Shown: positions 424-37,913 of the stretch, in pieces
Layout: each line of letters starts with the position of its first letter
How positions within the stretch are numbered: the first letter of the stretch is position 1
Virus record (IMG/VR): IMGVR_UViG_3300010376_000077
Coordinates: 1 to 38,322 of that record
Source: a virus
Lineage: Duplodnaviria > Caudoviricetes
Direction: 5' to 3' (one strand)
DNA length: 38,322 nucleotides
The notes under the pieces: model-generated
Databases searched by the model: none
Told to the model about the DNA's origin: nothing
Seen by the model: the letters and a program-made list of their open reading frames with translations, nothing else
Translations under genes and position numbers: made by a program

Positions 424-1988
424 TGCCGACCAGCCAGGCGGCGATCCGCAAGTACCTCCTAGAGCAGCCAACCGCGCCTGTCGCACAGCGGCTGTTCCGC
501 GGCGCAGGCAGCCGCGCGCTGCGCGACAGCATCCTGGCCAGCGGCGGTCACGAATTGCTGACCAAGACCGACCCCTACCAGCACCAACTGGAAGGGTTGG
601 CGTTTGCGCTGTGGGCCAAGCGCGGGCTGCTGTTCTACGAGATGCGTACGGGTAAGACAAAACTTAGCCTGGATTGGCTGAGTTATCTGATCTATTCGGG
701 ACAACTTACAAAAAAGGCCCTGATCATCGCGCATGCCCCCGTCGGCGTCGATGTCTGGGAGCACGAAGCAGCGCTACACTCATATCTCGACATTGCCGTC
801 GTGCGCAGCGGGTCCGCGGCCACCGACCAGTTGGTCGACGCCCTCGCCAGCCGCTGCGACGCGGTTCTGATCAGTTGGTCGACCTTGCAGACGATCTTTG
901 CCGTCAAGCAGGAAGGGCGGAAAAAAGTGCTCTACGCCGACCGCGCAACACTGCGCGCCGCCGCCGAGTTCTTTGACGCCGCCATCGTCGACGAGATCCA
1001 CATGGCAGGGCATTGGGACACCCTACGTTTTACAATGGCTTCAGAACTCCTCGCGCGATGCCGCTGGCGCCTGGGGTTGACTGGCACCCCCTTTGGCCGC
1101 GACCCGCTGCTGCTATGGGGCCAGGTCTATCTGATCGATGGCGGGGCAGCCTTGACCAGGGCATTCCCGTTCTTTCGCGAAGCGTTCTGCACAACCCGCT
1201 ACAACCAGTTTTCCAGGGGTCAGGATTACACCTTCGACCAGCAGAAAATGCCGTTGTTGCGCGAGAAATTGCAGGGTCTGACCCTGCACTGCGCGCTGGC
1301 CGACGTGCAGGACGTCAATGTGCTGAAGGGGATCGTCCGCCTGTCGATGTCGGCCGAGCAGGCGCGGGCCTATGACGAGGCTGTCGACCGTCTGGTTGAA
1401 TTGCGCACGGGGCAAGCCGTCGAGATCGATGCGACGTTTGTCAGGTTGAGACAGATCGCGTCGGGTTTTCTCCCCTTTGACGACACCGCAGGCGAACGCC
1501 GCGTCGTCGATTTCCCCGACGCCAGCAAACTCGCCTGGCTCGACGACTTTCTCGACAATCTGCCCGATCTTCAAGTGGTTGTGATGCATGACTTCATACA
1601 TTCGGGGGATAGAATCTGCAAACTATTGGAAAAGCATAAAATCAAGTATGACTGGTTGCGCGGCGGGACACCGAACCGTCCTCAGATCCTCGAACGCTTC
1701 CGCAATTGTGAGACACGAGTGCTCGTGACCAATGTCGCGACTGGAGGGATGAGTATAGATCTAGCAATCTGTGACTATTTACTTTTCTTCGAAGCGCCTC
1801 CTTCCGCAATTATCCGTAAACAGGCGGAAGCCCGCCCATTGGCTCGCGGCTCGCGACCACTTGTCATGGACGATCTCGTCTGTTCCCCAATCGAGCTTAA
1901 AATCCTAGATTTCCACGCCACGGGAGAAGATCTCCGCAGCGCGCTGTTGAGAGATCCCAAAAAATTCACTGAGGAATTACGAAGGTGA
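423..1988 (+). CDS. SNF2-family DEAD/DEAH-box helicase
   Basis: Walker A-like [26 protein letters not shown] and C-terminal helicase motifs (GGMSIDL, QAEAR). Confidence 0.9.
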
Positions 1989-2656
1989 AACGGATCGATA
2001 TAACTGGGCAAAGATTCGGTCGTTTGACCGCTTTGCGCCCAGCACAACAAAGCGGTTCGGCACGAACCCGTTGGATCTGCCAATGCAATTGCGAGCGTCG
2101 CACAATCAAAACGATAAGGCTCAGCGACTTGCGTACAGGCAGGACCAAAAGTTGCGGCTGCTGGAACCGAGAACGCGCTGCACAGCAATTGAAAGACCTT
2201 TACCCTGATGGTCAGTCAGGCACAAACAGTCCGTCTTTCAAACATGGAAAAGCACGAACCCGAGAGCACAATGCTTGGTACAATATGATCCAACGCTGCA
2301 CTAACCCCAACCACAAACATTATTCCTATTATGGTGGACGCGGAATCACCGTCTGCGAGCGTTGGCGAACTTCCTTCATGGATTTCCTTGCTGACATGGG
2401 TGAATGCCCCACCAAATACACTTTGGAGCGGATCGACAATAACGGAAACTACGAACCAAACAACTGCCGCTGGGTAACGACAAAGGAACAGGCCATCAAC
2501 AAGCGTCCACGAAAGCTAACCAAGGAGCAAGTCCTCGAAATCCGTCGTCGCTACACGGGGCGACGTGGCGAGCAGAGCGCTCTCGCCCGCGAGTTCGACG
2601 TACCACAAGGGCACATCTGGGGAATCGTCAATCGGATGACGTGGACGCACATCTAA
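1985..2656 (+). CDS. free-standing HNH homing endonuclease with C-terminal HTH
   Basis: [45 protein letters not shown]; lower GC than its neighbours. Confidence 0.9.
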
Positions 2657-2701
2657 CTATCCACGCTTTCCACCGACTTATCCACAAGTCATTAGTCAGC
2701 T

Positions 2702-2730
2702 CCTTGCACTTTTAGCTAACATCCCCACAT
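2702..2730 (+). promoter_or_regulatory. repeated phage promoter/operator, copy 1
   Basis: CCTTGCACTTTTAGCTAACATCCCCACAT, identical to 6114-6142; intergenic, upstream of a + strand gene run. Confidence 0.75.
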
Positions 2731-2738
2731 CTCGCTGC

Positions 2739-5929: not shown

Positions 5930-6113
5930 CGCGGGTGACGCTTGGACGGGCCCGGTACGGTTCAACACCCGACATTCACCTGGGACCAGTCGGCTAAAGT
6001 GTCCCGCGGTCTGGTGCTAGGGTCCCAGGCGCCAGGTCCCGAACAACCCCCGACAGCCAGTGGAGGGACCCAGCACCGGGGACCTCACCCCCTCGCGACT
6101 GGCACCTAAAGGC

Positions 6114-6142
6114 CCTTGCACTTTTAGCTAACATCCCCACAT
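6114..6142 (+). promoter_or_regulatory. repeated phage promoter/operator, copy 2
   Basis: 29-nt exact match to 2702-2730. Confidence 0.75.
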
Positions 6143-6172
6143 AACGGGTACCCGATAAAAAGGTATCCCCCG

Positions 6173-7339: not shown

Positions 7340-7893
7340 GCAAGCGCACCGATCTAACGGGTCAGCGTTACGGTCGCCTTACTGTGGTGACGCGTATGCT
7401 GGCCCGCCCTGGCAGCTACAGCTATCGGTGGCTGTGCATCTGCGATTGCCCTGACAGGACCAAAGTTGTCGTAGAGCAGTATAATCTGCGCAGCGGCAAT
7501 ACCCAAAGTTGCGGATGTCTACAGCGAGAGATGTCTAGCCAACGCGCGACCCGCCGCAACTCTCTTCTGGTCGGACCAAACAACCCAAACTATATCGACG
7601 GTCGCTCGGTCGACAACCGACCCGAATATTCTGCATGGCTAAATGCGAAAAGTCGGTGTTTCGACGAAACGAACGCATTTTACAAAGATTACGGCGGAAG
7701 AGGCATCACAGTCTGCGATCGATGGCTAGATTTCCAGACCTTTCTTGAGGATCTCGGTTCAAAACCTGACCCATCGCTGAGCTTGGAGCGAATCAATAAC
7801 GACGGCAACTACGAACCTGGCAACTGCAAGTGGGCAACCGCCAAGGAGCAAGCTGGGAACCGCAGACCTGCCTTTCGAGGAGTTCCCCGATGA
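7336..7893 (+). CDS. free-standing HNH homing endonuclease
   Basis: Starts MSKRTDLTGQRYGRL; [35 protein letters not shown]; same family as 1985-2656. Confidence 0.9.
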   Translation: MSKRTDLTGQRYGRLTVVTRMLARPGSYSYRWLCICDCPDRTKVVVEQYNLRSGNTQSCGCLQREMSSQRATRRNSLLVGPNNPNYIDGRSVDNRPEYSAWLNAKSRCFDETNAFYKDYGGRGITVCDRWLDFQTFLEDLGSKPDPSLSLERINNDGNYEPGNCKWATAKEQAGNRRPAFRGVPR

Positions 7894-11127: not shown

Positions 11128-12168
11128 TTGATGGATGCCATCGGGCAGACGGCGGCGAGGATCGCCGCCGAGCCCCGCAAGCTGCCCGACAAAGTGCTGC
11201 TGTGCTACGACGATCTCGCCAAGCGGCTCATCGGGACCCCGCGCTACCTGCTCGACGGCAACGCGACGCGTACTGCGGTCGAACTCAACCTCGGGCGCCC
11301 TAAGGTGATGCTGGAGGCGATGCGCCATCTGCGTATCCCCTACCCACGCCTGTGGGTAGAATGGGACGACGCCGACCGCCAGAAATTACGCGCCAAGTTT
11401 GACGAGCCGCTGAGCTATGCCGAACTGCGACCGATGCCAGGTCGGGTCGGGTTTCTCCTCGAAGCCGAGCCTGGCGGCCGCCGCGGCACTGCCACCTGGG
11501 CCTGGACCAGCGCCCACCCAAGCGCGGACAAGCCGCAGCACCTGCTCGACAGCGGCGCCACCGCGGTGATGAACACCACTATTCCCAATATCGGGGCGGT
11601 CCAGCCCTATTTTGATCTCGACCAAGTATTTGACATGTCGCCCGCGCGGTTTGAGGGTCTGTTTAAGGGCAATCTCGCCAGGCTGTGGCACGACAATCCG
11701 GTCCAACTGCAAGCATTACTCGATATCTGGCGGACTTGCGATCACCGCCCCAGTGAGTGGGGCCAACTCTACTTCGACGCGCTCGGGCACGACCCGCTGA
11801 TGCGGGCGCTGGCCGATGCCGATGTGATTGGCGAATATATCATGATCTGGGCGGTTCTATTGCTGTTGACCGCCAGCCGCCCCATCGTCGACCTGGTGCC
11901 AATCGATCTTGGTCGGCTCAACAAACGGCGGCTCAAAGCCAAGCAGGTGCCGCTGCTCGACCATACCCGCGTCACCTTGCGCCTGCAGCCGCCCGACCCG
12001 CGTTACAACCCCGTGATCCGCGGCCCCCTCGGGTACAGCCGTAAGAGCCCTAGAGTTCACTTAGTAAGCTCGTATTTAGCGCGGAGAGGTGATAAGCACT
12101 GGGTCTGTCGGCCCTATATGAGAGGTTCAGGGGATGTCATTTATCGCCGAATCAACGTCAAAGGATAA
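11128..12168 (+). CDS. hypothetical phage protein
   Basis: 346-aa ORF with GAGGAG RBS and basic C-terminal SPRVH...W.RPY.RG motif. Confidence 0.75.
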   Translation: MMDAIGQTAARIAAEPRKLPDKVLLCYDDLAKRLIGTPRYLLDGNATRTAVELNLGRPKVMLEAMRHLRIPYPRLWVEWDDADRQKLRAKFDEPLSYAELRPMPGRVGFLLEAEPGGRRGTATWAWTSAHPSADKPQHLLDSGATAVMNTTIPNIGAVQPYFDLDQVFDMSPARFEGLFKGNLARLWHDNPVQLQALLDIWRTCDHRPSEWGQLYFDALGHDPLMRALADADVIGEYIMIWAVLLLLTASRPIVDLVPIDLGRLNKRRLKAKQVPLLDHTRVTLRLQPPDPRYNPVIRGPLGYSRKSPRVHLVSSYLARRGDKHWVCRPYMRGSGDVIYRRINVKG

Positions 12169-12709
12169 ACTTACCCGCGAGCAAGTCGTAGAGTACCTTG
12201 ACTACAACCCTTCGACAGGCGTCTTTCTATGGAAGAAAAAACCAACAAGCGCCAAAGTTAGTCGAGTTATGCCAGGAAAGATCGCAGGTTCGATACGAAG
12301 GGGTGGACGCGTAAAATTCGGATACCGTGGCATCAATATTTTTAGTCGCCGCTACCCCGCTTCGCACTTGGCCTGGCTGTTGATGACTGGCCATTGGCCG
12401 ACTTCAATCGATCATATCAACAATGACAGCACCGATGATCGGTGGGGTAATCTGCGCCTTGCGACGCAAACCCAAAACCAAATGAACACCAGTACCCGCG
12501 GCGACAACACCAGTGGATACAAAGGCGTCCATCCTTATTCGCGAGGTAATAGTCATCGGTGGGTTGCCCAGATTGGCCGCCATCATATCGGCTATTTCAA
12601 CACCCCCGAAGAAGCCGCCCGCGCTTATGACGCCGAGGCGACCAACCGATATGGCGAGTTCGCCTATCGCAATTTTCCACTTATCCGCCGCCCGCGAGAA
12701 AACCTCTAG
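12134..12709 (+). CDS. HNH endonuclease with AP2 DNA-binding domain
   Basis: IDHINNDSTDDRWGNLRLAT..QN..N; SGYKGV..W.AQI..IGYF.TPEEAARAYD. Confidence 0.9.
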   Translation: MSFIAESTSKDKLTREQVVEYLDYNPSTGVFLWKKKPTSAKVSRVMPGKIAGSIRRGGRVKFGYRGINIFSRRYPASHLAWLLMTGHWPTSIDHINNDSTDDRWGNLRLATQTQNQMNTSTRGDNTSGYKGVHPYSRGNSHRWVAQIGRHHIGYFNTPEEAARAYDAEATNRYGEFAYRNFPLIRRPRENL

Positions 12710-31280: not shown

Positions 31281-31988
31281 ATGCCAATGGCTGACGATTC
31301 AGGTATTCCCGAGATCATCACCCGTAAAGAGGCGCTCCAGCGCGGGCTCAAGCGCTACTTCCCAGGTACAGTTTGCAAGAATGGGCATTTCGCAGCGCGC
31401 CAGACATCTAACTGCGCGTGCATCGAATGCGTGAAAACGAACACAAGACGGTATTTCGCCAATCATCCAGGCAAACGAACCGAAACCTGGAACAAATGGG
31501 CGACTAAACAGTCCAATGAATGGCACGATGAACGCCGTGAACGGGATCTAGCTCGTCTATTGCTCCACTGTGAGCTTCGACCGGACCTACTGAAGAAGCG
31601 GATAAGCGATTGGCAAAAACGAAACCGCAAACGGAGAAACCAAACTACTAAGGACTGGTTTGATGCCAATCCTGGTAAGCACGGCCACTACAACGCATTG
31701 CGCCGTGCCGCCGAAGCCAATCCGTCGTGGGCTGACCAAGAAGTTATCGAACAGATTTACCGTGAAGCCAACGGAGTGGGGCTGACCGTCGAACACATTG
31801 TGCCGATAGGTCAAGAGCGCGATCCGCTTACCGCCGATGGCTATCCGATCCGCGGCCTACATGTCGCATGGAACCTACGACCGTTAGATGGCAGTACGAA
31901 CTCTAGCAAAAATGACAAAATGACCCGCAAAGACCAAGATTTCTGCGAACGGAACCCTTATCCTGGCGCAATCTATCCTACAACCTAA
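31281..31988 (+). CDS. free-standing HNH endonuclease, antisense within the late operon
   Basis: YF.G..CKNGH...R....C.C..C N-terminus; VEHIVPI...GLHVAWNLRPL....N.SK. Confidence 0.88.
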   Translation: MPMADDSGIPEIITRKEALQRGLKRYFPGTVCKNGHFAARQTSNCACIECVKTNTRRYFANHPGKRTETWNKWATKQSNEWHDERRERDLARLLLHCELRPDLLKKRISDWQKRNRKRRNQTTKDWFDANPGKHGHYNALRRAAEANPSWADQEVIEQIYREANGVGLTVEHIVPIGQERDPLTADGYPIRGLHVAWNLRPLDGSTNSSKNDKMTRKDQDFCERNPYPGAIYPTT

Positions 31989-34274: not shown

Positions 34275-35117
34275 CTAGTACAAATCCCCATCCAAAGGCC
34301 AGTTGAGATCATCGACATAGCGTTTGCTGGCTGGCTCGCTGGGCTGCACGGGCGATGCCGCCGTGTAAAGCGGTCCTTCCATCGTGCCGCCCGTGCTGGG
34401 CAACACCCGCTGCCAGGTCCGCGTGCCGCTGCGACCCCAGGCCGTGCCATCATGCGGCGCGTCGGTCATCGGCGGCTCGGGAGCGGGCGGCATGACGGTG
34501 AACGGCGTCTGATAGGGCGGCCCGCAAGCGCAATCGGCCTGGACGTAGCCCCGCACTCCGAGCAGGGTCAGGACGGGGTAGTTCTTTCTGATAATCCTAC
34601 GGAAGGTGATTTCCTTGTCCACCCTGTTGAGCCACTGGTTTTTGACCAACTCGGGAATGCGCCTGGATTCGTGGACCTCGACGAGCTTGACGCCGACCTG
34701 GTTCAGCACACTGTAGTTCTGCCAGACACAGGCGCCATCGTGCAGGTTCGAGCTATAGATTTCGGCCTGCGGCCCGTAAAACGTCACGAGCAACTCGAAC
34801 TCCTCGTGGCGCTGATACTGCACGAGACCATGATCGGGAAAGATCCACGGCCACATCGCTGGGTAGATGCCGACGGGGCGCGTGCTGGTGATGCCGATCG
34901 CGCACCAATCGGCGCCGACATCGGGCAGGTTTGGCGGGATCAATTGCCAGCGCGGGCGCACCAGGGTCTCCTCGATATAGGCGACGCCAGCCACCCATTG
35001 CTGCAAAAAATTCTCCAGCGGGACGCCAGGCTGGATCTGCTGGTCGGGGTAGGGCGGCTCGCGCGGCTGCAGATAGCCTGGAGCACTGCTGTCGGGAGCC
35101 TGATCGGGGATTGCCAT
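34275..35117 (-). CDS. neck/tail-terminator protein with C-terminal foldon-like extension
   Basis: S..GYL.P, VRPRWQ..PP..P....WCA.GI, FYGP, W..RVD...FRR...R.YPV. Confidence 0.8.
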   Translation of the reverse strand: MAIPDQAPDSSAPGYLQPREPPYPDQQIQPGVPLENFLQQWVAGVAYIEETLVRPRWQLIPPNLPDVGADWCAIGITSTRPVGIYPAMWPWIFPDHGLVQYQRHEEFELLVTFYGPQAEIYSSNLHDGACVWQNYSVLNQVGVKLVEVHESRRIPELVKNQWLNRVDKEITFRRIIRKNYPVLTLLGVRGYVQADCACGPPYQTPFTVMPPAPEPPMTDAPHDGTAWGRSGTRTWQRVLPSTGGTMEGPLYTAASPVQPSEPASKRYVDDLNWPLDGDLY

Positions 35118-35174
35118 AAATCTGTGCCGTGAATAGCTATTAGTTTAGTCGGAAAGCAACTTTGGGTTAGCCTC

Positions 35175-35483
35175 ATGTCGTCGTTCGGGTCGCATAGCTA
35201 CATGGCCCCTGACACCTTCCGCTGGACGGCGCGCCGCAAACTCGAACTCGTCAAGGCGCTGGTCCACGCCGACCAGACGACCCGCCAAGCGGTGCAGCAG
35301 CAATATGGCATCTCCGATGAGGAACTCGCCGAGTGGCTGCAGCGCTACGGCAGCGGTGACGTATTACAAGCGCGGGCCCGTCTGCGGGCCTCTGATATGA
35401 GCCTGCGCTGGGGCGGCAGGTCCCGCAAACTGCGCCGTATGGCCGCCGCCCGCGGGCAGAGCCCGCGCGATGCCGCCGACTAA
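35175..35483 (+). CDS. sciP: SciP/DUF1153-like protein (CtrA inhibitor homolog)
   Basis: PDTFRWTARRKLELVKAL...QQYGISDEELAEW...RLRAS matches the SciP pattern PDTxRWxxRRKAxVVxAV...RYxLxxEEFxSW...GLRxT; alternative start at 35202. Confidence 0.7.
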   Translation: MSSFGSHSYMAPDTFRWTARRKLELVKALVHADQTTRQAVQQQYGISDEELAEWLQRYGSGDVLQARARLRASDMSLRWGGRSRKLRRMAAARGQSPRDAAD

Positions 35484-35800
35484 CCCTGACCGTTGGGTTT
35501 TCGCGGCCGCACCCCCGCCCCCTGCGCAGGGCGCGGCAGATCGGAGAAGCGGCGGGTCAGATCGGTCGGGCTCTTGCCAAAGTGCTCGGGCAGGCGTTCG
35601 AGATCGCGGTCGGCGCGGTCCTGCAGCGCCGCCGCCATCGCGGCGCCCGCAGTAAAACCGATCTTGGCGAGGATCTCGCGCTCGGCTTCCGAGAATTTCG
35701 CGATGTCGAACGGCAGACCAGCCTGCGGCACCGTCAGCGCCTGGTTGGCCTCGACGGGCTCATCAGGCTTTGGGGTCCTGCCGTTGGGTCGTCTGGGCAT
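35480..35800 (-). CDS. hypothetical protein
   Basis: GAGGAGG RBS, 106 aa, lies in the late operon. Confidence 0.6.
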   Translation of the reverse strand: MPRRPNGRTPKPDEPVEANQALTVPQAGLPFDIAKFSEAEREILAKIGFTAGAAMAAALQDRADRDLERLPEHFGKSPTDLTRRFSDLPRPAQGAGVRPRKPNGQG

Positions 35801-37873: not shown

Positions 37874-37913
37874 ACATCACCCCTTGCAGTTTTAGCTAAC
37901 ACCCCCATATAAC
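37863..37913 (+). promoter_or_regulatory. repeated promoter/operator, copy 4, plus an upstream half copy
   Basis: GTTTTAGCCAAACATCACCC then CTTGCAGTTTTAGCTAACACCCCCATATAAC at the divergence point. Confidence 0.75.

What the first reader, a model, noticed from the sequence alone, without database searches (positions are those of the whole stretch)
35175..35483. Phage-encoded SciP (CtrA inhibitor) homolog inserted antisense in the neck operon
Seen: a DUF1153-type signature (PDT.RW..RRK..LV.A...Y.IS.EE..EW...LR) on the strand opposite all its neighbours. Established: SciP binds CtrA and represses CtrA-activated genes (flagella, pili, chemotaxis) in Caulobacter and relatives, and CtrA-binding sites have been reported in phages. 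Inference: this phage may write to the host cell-cycle circuit rather than only read it, for example shutting off pili/flagellar receptors or holding a favourable cell state; alternatively a repurposed HTH regulator.
Basis: partly seen in the sequence, partly recalled or inferred. Interest (0 to 1): 0.8.

Follow-up and report, generated by a model that had tools for sequence, protein, structure and literature searches.

The report
Phage moron: remodelled SciP-like regulator
A soil phage carries a small inserted gene for a strongly remodelled relative of SciP, the bacterial protein that damps the cell-cycle master regulator CtrA; it keeps the two arginines SciP uses to bind CtrA, so it likely lets the phage turn down host flagellum and pilus-assembly genes, which is untested.

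Summary
Observation confirmed. 35175-35483(+) is a real 102-aa DUF1153 gene (35.2 bits, cut-off 23.5; transposase HTH 20.6, below its cut-off) lying antisense in a myophage neck operon. It is an insertion: the nearest relatives join the flanking genes directly, and 0 of 80 related neck loci carry it.

It is not a SciP orthologue (NCBIfam 31 bits, cut-off 100). It keeps R35, R40 and 8 of 10 host-invariant residues but only 13 of 27 near-invariant ones, and has new N- and C-termini. Its upstream region has no CtrA box (hosts 26 of 30), and the window shows no CtrA-box enrichment. GANTC depletion points to an alphaproteobacterial host.

The kind is widespread: 30 distinct SciP-like genes on 28 viral contigs, some nested among host SciPs, and one in cultured Erythrobacter phage XM05. 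This scan noted the same theme in at least 12 other genomes; my literature searches found no phage-encoded SciP.

Best reading (0.45): a CtrA-independent SciP mimic damping CtrA-activated promoters. Main rival (0.3): a regulator repurposed for phage promoters.

The parts
35175..35483 (+). SciP-like (DUF1153) gene, 102 aa; three-helix core about residues 16-59, basic clade-specific tail
35118..35479 (.). 362-bp insertion between the 106-aa ORF and the neck terminator gene, carrying the gene and its AT-rich upstream region
   Evidence: flanking genes abut or overlap in L198 and L200, neck1 lies about 106 nt from the terminator gene in L194; upstream GC 0.42
35111..35139 (+). candidate sigma-70-type promoter (TTGCCA, 17 nt, TAGCTA); no CtrA box
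   Evidence: read by eye; not reported by the consensus scan; no CtrA box within 2 mismatches. Inferred
34275..35117 (-). neck terminator gene, divergent from the SciP-like gene
   Evidence: PF23961 E 6e-22
35480..35800 (-). 106-aa ORF of unknown family, convergent, stop codons overlap by 4 nt
   Evidence: 41-43% identical homologues in L200 and L198
35852..36436 (-). neck1 / tail completion gene
   Evidence: phrog_222 E 1.5e-32
2701..2733 (+). copy 1 of a 33-nt repeat, likely early promoter with TTAGCTAA in the spacer
6113..6145 (+). copy 2 of the 33-nt repeat
37881..37913 (+). copy 3 of the 33-nt repeat

Best explanation
The gene is an inserted, stand-alone phage gene for a remodelled SciP-family protein that likely binds host CtrA and would damp CtrA-activated late-S-phase promoters (flagellar and pilus-assembly genes) in a likely alphaproteobacterial host. 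Shown: real gene, DUF1153 family, insertion, R35/R40 kept, no CtrA box upstream. Inferred: it descends from a host sciP captured long ago; it is transcribed from its own promoter, uncoupled from the cell cycle, early in infection; R16 and R21 (SciP R35, R40) contact CtrA; out-of-phase SciP activity lowers receptor synthesis or delays cell differentiation; the opposite-strand late transcript would silence it later. That SciP blocks RNA polymerase recruitment by CtrA is recalled, not read here.
For: [quoted passage not shown] 27) and are kept in this protein and in 7 of 7 members of its clade. R35 was not part of my search patterns and is kept in 29 of 30 viral copies. 8 of 10 residues invariant in 66 host SciPs are kept; position 65, implicated in function (PMC4083442), is Ser as in 47 of 66 hosts. 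Extra sciP from a plasmid makes Caulobacter non-motile, so unscheduled expression is enough. Host sciP upstream regions hold a CtrA box (at most 1 mismatch) in 26 of 30, viral ones in 2 of 30, this one not. GANTC is the most depleted of 16 gapped palindromes in the window (rho 0.56), in its 12 nearest relatives (0.50) and in the SciP-bearing viral loci (0.64), against 0.84 in 68 distant relatives; this bias marks Alphaproteobacteria (PMC3973325). Other phage copies nest among host SciPs (two groups, SH-aLRT 98), which fits repeated capture. Both near-complete records among the 12 nearest relatives carry a DUF1153 gene elsewhere.
Against: Far below the SciP equivalog cut-off (31 of 100 bits), and weaker than other phage copies (66-112 bits). 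Only 13 of 27 near-invariant host positions are identical; Leu-Pro before helix 1 (63 of 64 hosts), V37, C59, R61 and the T-x-x-Q-x-Y-R tail (57 of 64 hosts) are lost. G80, whose change weakens Agrobacterium SciP (G77R), aligns with Asp beside a 4-residue insertion; T24 is absent. R35 and R40 may be kept for fold or DNA contact. R40 was in my patterns, so its conservation in viral hits is circular. One Atlas look-alike cluster is mostly Bacteroidota (38% DUF1153, score 0.87, lead only), a phylum not known to have CtrA (recalled). The host is inferred from word bias only. No CtrA-box enrichment in the window (3 against 2.0 expected).
Confidence: 0.45

Rival explanations
1. Repurposed phage regulator: the HTH core has lost CtrA binding and, with its new basic tail, binds the phage's own early promoters (TTAGCTAA spacer) and its own upstream region to switch early transcription off.
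For: TAGCTA occurs only five times in the window: in the three 33-nt repeats and twice at the head of this gene (35134, 35195). The clade's new termini are conserved among its members and basic (pI 9.2-11.0). 8 of 28 viral loci examined lie among recombination genes of early operons. Fold neighbours are DNA-binding HTHs (Mu transposase, CENP-B; Z 5.0-5.6).
Against: The putative recognition helix starts with S-D-E-E and is acidic, as in SciP. The word coincidence was noticed after the fact. The repeat was not found in relatives (41 hits, all in low-GC contigs), and TAGCTA is upstream of 0 of 30 other viral copies.
Confidence: 0.3
2. Dominant-negative SciP: it docks on CtrA through the kept arginines but, lacking the host tail, does not repress, so it displaces host SciP and keeps CtrA promoters on.
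For: CtrA-contact arginines kept while the conserved C-terminal tail and G80 are replaced; G77R in Agrobacterium SciP acts as a loss of repression.
Against: No direct support; the role of the tail was not found in the papers I could read; the window has no CtrA boxes that would profit.
Confidence: 0.15
3. Neutral cargo or insertion-sequence remnant (IS3 OrfA / IS66 TnpA-type HTH) with no role in infection.
For: Weak hits to HTH_Tnp_1 (20.6 bits) and IS3/IS66 models; patchy presence; an 8-bp inverted word TTAGTCGG near both ends of the insertion (seen).
Against: All transposase scores are below their cut-offs and below DUF1153; no transposase hit at E 1e-12 among 141 neighbours of 29 loci; intact frame with conserved relatives; the right-hand word is the coding end Ala-Ala-Asp-stop shared with P0002 and P0004.
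Confidence: 0.1

Closest known systems
SciP of Caulobacter crescentus and other Alphaproteobacteria (Pfam DUF1153 PF06627; NCBIfam NF051866; PDB 2jrt, 2oa4)
   Same: Three-helix core, R35, W36, R40, K41, Y62, E68, W72, L84; about 39% identity over 49 aligned residues with 2jrt, rmsd 2.2.
   Different: Phage-borne; no N-terminal hairpin or Leu-Pro; new FGS..Y.A start; 4-residue insertion and new basic tail; no CtrA box upstream; 31 of 100 bits on the equivalog model.
CtrA-binding sites in Alphaproteobacteria phages, lytic deferment (PMC9437464)
   Same: Phage link to the CtrA circuit.
   Different: Those phages read CtrA through DNA sites; this one has no site enrichment and carries a protein of the inhibitor's family. 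The paper scans for SciP sites only and does not report phage-encoded SciP in the passages seen.
Erythrobacter phage XM05 gene XM05_97 (PV416404.1, XYM60381.1)
   Same: 64-aa hairpin-less SciP-like protein in a cultured phage.
   Different: Annotated as hypothetical; keeps the host-type tail; lies among small co-oriented genes; the window's protein itself had no tblastn match in that collection.
IS3 OrfA / IS66 TnpA helix-turn-helix (PF01527)
   Same: Related HTH fold, weak profile scores.
   Different: Below cut-off; no partner transposase; R-R-K and E-E-L-x-x-W motifs are of the SciP type.

Membership tests
Pfam DUF1153 (PF06627) | score above gathering cut-off 23.5 | tested here: met
   35.2 bits
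SciP (NF051866 equivalog) | score above cut-off 100 | tested here: not met
   31 bits; host controls 140.9 and 111.5
SciP (NF051866 equivalog) | R35 and R40 | tested here: met
   R16 and R21; numbering fixed by the T24-T65 spacing in locus L137; importance
SciP (NF051866 equivalog) | T/S65 and L64 at the recognition helix | tested here: met
   S47 (Ser in 47 of 66 hosts) and I46 (Ile in 2 of 66)
SciP (NF051866 equivalog) | Leu-Pro before helix 1, T24, N-terminal hairpin | tested here: not met
   absent; Leu-Pro in 63 of 64 hosts, but the hairpin motif in only 34 of 64, so the hairpin is not itself defining
SciP (NF051866 equivalog) | G80 and C-terminal L-R-x-T-R-x-Q-x-Y-R tail | tested here: not met
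   L-R kept, rest replaced; G80 column holds Asp next to an insertion, alignment uncertain by one residue
SciP (NF051866 equivalog) | own promoter carries a CtrA box | tested here: not met
   best match 3 mismatches; hosts 26 of 30 within 1 mismatch
SciP (NF051866 equivalog) | SciP-type helix-turn-helix fold | tested here: inconclusive
   model pLDDT 77-83 over residues 11-50; 2jrt and 2oa4 rank 1 and 2 in Foldseek but E 0.19 and 0.72; 2jrt Z 4.0, rmsd 2.2, 49 aligned, tied with many HTHs
SciP (NF051866 equivalog) | binds CtrA and inhibits late-S-phase promoters | not testable with these tools
   needs a bench assay
IS3 OrfA / IS66 TnpA HTH | score above family cut-off | tested here: not met
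   PF01527 20.6 of 24.1; NF033516 19.6 of 160; NF047595 16.2 of 74
IS3 OrfA / IS66 TnpA HTH | adjacent catalytic transposase gene | tested here: not met
   neighbours are neck genes

The most novel reading that the evidence does not exclude
Phages of Alphaproteobacteria have captured sciP many times and evolved a large family of cell-cycle-uncoupled CtrA modulators, of which this clade is the most remodelled. They write to the host cell-cycle circuit, closing flagellar and pilus receptors or holding a cell state, as the counterpart of the known CtrA-reading 'lytic deferment' sites.
Probability: 0.4. Interest if true: 0.8.

Novelty: new variant of a known kind. Interest (0 to 1): 0.52.

Why it matters
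Phages are known to read CtrA through DNA sites (PMC9437464). A phage protein that acts on CtrA would show direct control of the alphaproteobacterial cell-cycle programme by a virus, and offer a route to receptor-level superinfection exclusion. The divergent copies are also a natural mutant series that shows which SciP residues are indispensable. A cultured phage (XM05) with such a gene makes the question testable now. This particular copy is among the least SciP-like, so it is a test of how far the function stretches rather than the best first candidate.

Tried and rejected
Complex prediction of a CtrA alignment (residues 1-224, 10 rows) with residues 1-72 of the protein: verdict 'no answer', score 0.00, no controls folded; not evidence either way. 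No RNA holder listed. Protein-pattern scans of viral contigs with alignment A1, the terminator protein alone and a host SciP found nothing; a clade-specific DNA pattern found 0, so no second genomic context for this clade was obtained. The metagenome scan gave 5 host-type SciPs and 1 unrelated locus. tblastn of the protein against 50,697 phage records: no match. The recalled SciP word TGTCGCG is enriched (22 against 12.4; 9.8 under codon shuffle), but 20 of 22 lie inside called genes and z is 1.4 under the maximal-order Markov model: rejected as promoter evidence. TTAAC is not enriched (14 against 23.4). The 33-nt repeat scan gave only low-GC chance hits. Host search with the terminator alignment in 401 alphaproteobacterial genomes: 0, with no positive control. 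Named-phage matches (sheath 38% to Burkholderia phages; helicase 37-40% to Thermus, Sphingobium, Ruegeria, Caulobacter phages; none for 11131-12168) do not fix the host. The careful tree did not finish; only the quick tree on 68 columns is used. Paper search was badly formed and is uninformative; one search (R40A) found 0. Tan 2010 (PMC2973855) is not held. The idea that loss of the hairpin is diagnostic was dropped: 30 of 64 host SciPs lack the motif.

Full report
Observation. The ORF at 35175-35483 (+) is there and encodes 102 aa. It scores 35.2 bits on Pfam DUF1153 (cut-off 23.5) over profile positions 24-69 of 87; the next family, HTH_Tnp_1, scores 20.6 (cut-off 24.1). Its best PDB sequence matches are the DUF1153 NMR structures 2jrt and 2oa4. 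It lies opposite to a myophage head-neck-tail operon: Mu F-like gene, head protein, neck1, a 106-aa ORF, then neck terminator and sheath. The record is a linear viral contig, 67% complete. Four relatives at 52-66% identity and two more from a profile search (P0006, P0007) form its clade; they sit on short metagenome contigs whose DNA I could not fetch. Contig evidence: run X1 spans the gene without change but may be the source; run X2 has a 93% identical piece whose 4 listed changes of 10 are synonymous.

It is an insertion. Among 80 viral loci found with the neck-terminator alignment, 0 of 80 hold a SciP-like frame by tblastn or by a profile of 158 family rows. In L198 the homologue of the 106-aa ORF ends 3 nt before the terminator start, in L200 it overlaps that start, and in L194 (57% terminator identity) neck1 lies about 106 nt before it. 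The window has 362 extra bases there, with a 57-nt AT-rich stretch (GC 0.42) holding a possible TTGCCA-17-TAGCTA promoter, read by eye; the consensus scan did not list it. I searched 50 of the 80 records whole for PF06627: 3 of 50 match, 2 of 18 among near-complete ones; all three are among the 11 nearest, and the gene lies elsewhere in those genomes.

The kind is widespread in phages. Two degenerate DNA patterns gave 29 + 7 viral loci. Three are chance (L007, L031, L042), one is a host gene at a prophage flank (L036, 99% identical to Shinella SciP) and two are duplicates (L015, L032), leaving 30 genes on 28 contigs; two phages carry two copies. I sent 141 neighbours of 29 loci to PHROGs at E 1e-12: 26 of 28 viral loci have a phage-family neighbour, 8 lie among recombination genes, L030 lies antisense between portal and terminase as this one does in the neck operon, and no transposase appeared. 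A cultured phage, Erythrobacter phage XM05, has one as XM05_97, annotated hypothetical; 1 of 50,697 records matched. The profile search found 653 proteins at E 0.001; 49 of the first 50 ids scanned match DUF1153.

How far from SciP. NCBIfam NF051866 gives 31 bits against a cut-off of 100; host controls give 141 and 112, other phage copies 66-112. PF06627 rang in 90 of 201 alphaproteobacterial genomes, nearly always once, and in 1 of 14 control genomes, Caulobacter. Against 66 host sequences (64 from that draw, 2 from metagenome loci), numbered by the T24-T65 spacing, the protein keeps 8 of 10 invariant residues (R35, W36, R40, K41, Y62, E68, W72, L84; G80 to Asp beside an insertion, T87 to Ser) but is identical at only 13 of 27 positions conserved in at least 90%. 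R35 and R40 are critical for the SciP-CtrA interaction (10.1101/335265, passages; it cites the original work, which I did not see). T65A and T24I weaken SciP, and plasmid-borne sciP stops motility (PMC4083442, passages; its supplementary list of 11 suppressors was not seen). Position 65 is Ser here as in 47 of 66 hosts; T24 is absent. R35 is kept in 29 of 30 viral copies although not in my patterns; R40 was in them. In the profile hits, 143 of 150 have the core signature, with R35 in 139 and R40 in 128 (partly circular). The hairpin motif is in only 34 of 64 hosts, whereas Leu-Pro (63 of 64) and the tail (57 of 64) are general and both are lost here. The model has three confident helices; 2jrt ranks first in Foldseek at E 0.19 and aligns at rmsd 2.2 over 49 residues, Z 4.0, among many HTHs. 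In a quick tree of 158 rows and 68 columns the clade (11 rows, SH-aLRT 94) sits in a long-branch group of 47 rows with 13 viral and no primary host copy (92); other phage copies group with host SciPs at 98. The tree is weakly resolved and unrooted, so repeated capture is suggested, not shown.

Host and regulation. GANTC is the most depleted of 16 gapped palindromes in the window (rho 0.56), in the 12 nearest relatives (0.50; 10 of 10 long loci at or under 0.7) and in SciP-bearing viral loci (0.64; 21 of 29 under 0.7), against 0.84 (15 of 53) in distant relatives. Under a codon shuffle CCNGG and GGNCC are also depleted, so restriction avoidance may add to it. The bias is described for Alphaproteobacteria except Rickettsiales (PMC3973325, passages). 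Host sciP genes have a CtrA box within one mismatch upstream in 26 of 30 cases, viral ones in 2 of 30, this one not. The window has no CtrA-box excess. It has three copies of a 33-nt promoter-like repeat, and TAGCTA occurs only there and twice at the head of this gene.

Mechanism. Host sciP is made from a CtrA-activated promoter in G1 and inhibits late-S-phase CtrA promoters (10.1101/739516, passages). A copy with the contact arginines but without the CtrA box would act out of phase and damp flagellar and pilus-assembly genes; I give this 0.45. The remodelled ends leave room for a phage-promoter regulator (0.3) or a dominant-negative form (0.15); neutral cargo is least likely (0.1). One Atlas cluster labelled mostly Bacteroidota (lead only) warns that the short form may work without CtrA.

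Novelty. Searches for SciP + CtrA + phage (28 papers, 26 listed), SciP + prophage + CtrA (5) and DUF1153 (0) showed no title or abstract start on a phage-encoded SciP. PMC9437464 (abstract and passages) treats only binding sites; PMC12014285 (passages) covers XM05 without naming SciP or CtrA. The library lacks most subscription papers. This scan has noted the theme in at least 12 other genomes; none resembles this sequence by shared words, and those notes are not independent evidence. Verdict: a new, strongly remodelled variant of a known family, real and testable; interest 0.52.

Noticed in passing
window 2701-2733, 6113-6145, 37881-37913 (+): Three 91%-identical 33-nt repeats upstream of small plus-strand genes; they look like early sigma-70 promoters (TTGCA, 18 nt, -10 without the last T) with the palindrome TTAGCTAA in the spacer.
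   Followed up: partly
L030:5956-7317 (+): SciP-like domain fused to about 380 further residues with a hydrophobic stretch, antisense between portal and terminase; the same phage has a second copy (L016).
   Followed up: no
L037:5437-6216 (+): SciP-like domain close to a host SciP (L165) at the C-terminus of a 259-aa prophage protein, near a repressor gene.
   Followed up: no
P0008, P0010, P0012, P0019: Proteins with two tandem DUF1153 domains.
   Followed up: no
window 35480-35800 (-): 106-aa ORF without a family match, conserved at 41-43% before the neck terminator in L198 and L200.
   Followed up: partly
window 31281-31988 (+), 1985-2656 (+), about 7340-7890 (+), 12134-12709 (+): Several nuclease-like genes (endonuclease VII-like, HNH-AP2 and two related ones sharing a 71-nt repeat); the first is also antisense within the tail operon.
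   Followed up: no
L039 and L009, upstream of the SciP-like gene: The only 2 of 30 viral copies with a CtrA box upstream (0 and 1 mismatch); both are host-like in sequence.
   Followed up: no
L124-L188 host SciPs: 30 of 64 chromosomal alphaproteobacterial SciPs lack the N-terminal hairpin motif.
   Followed up: partly
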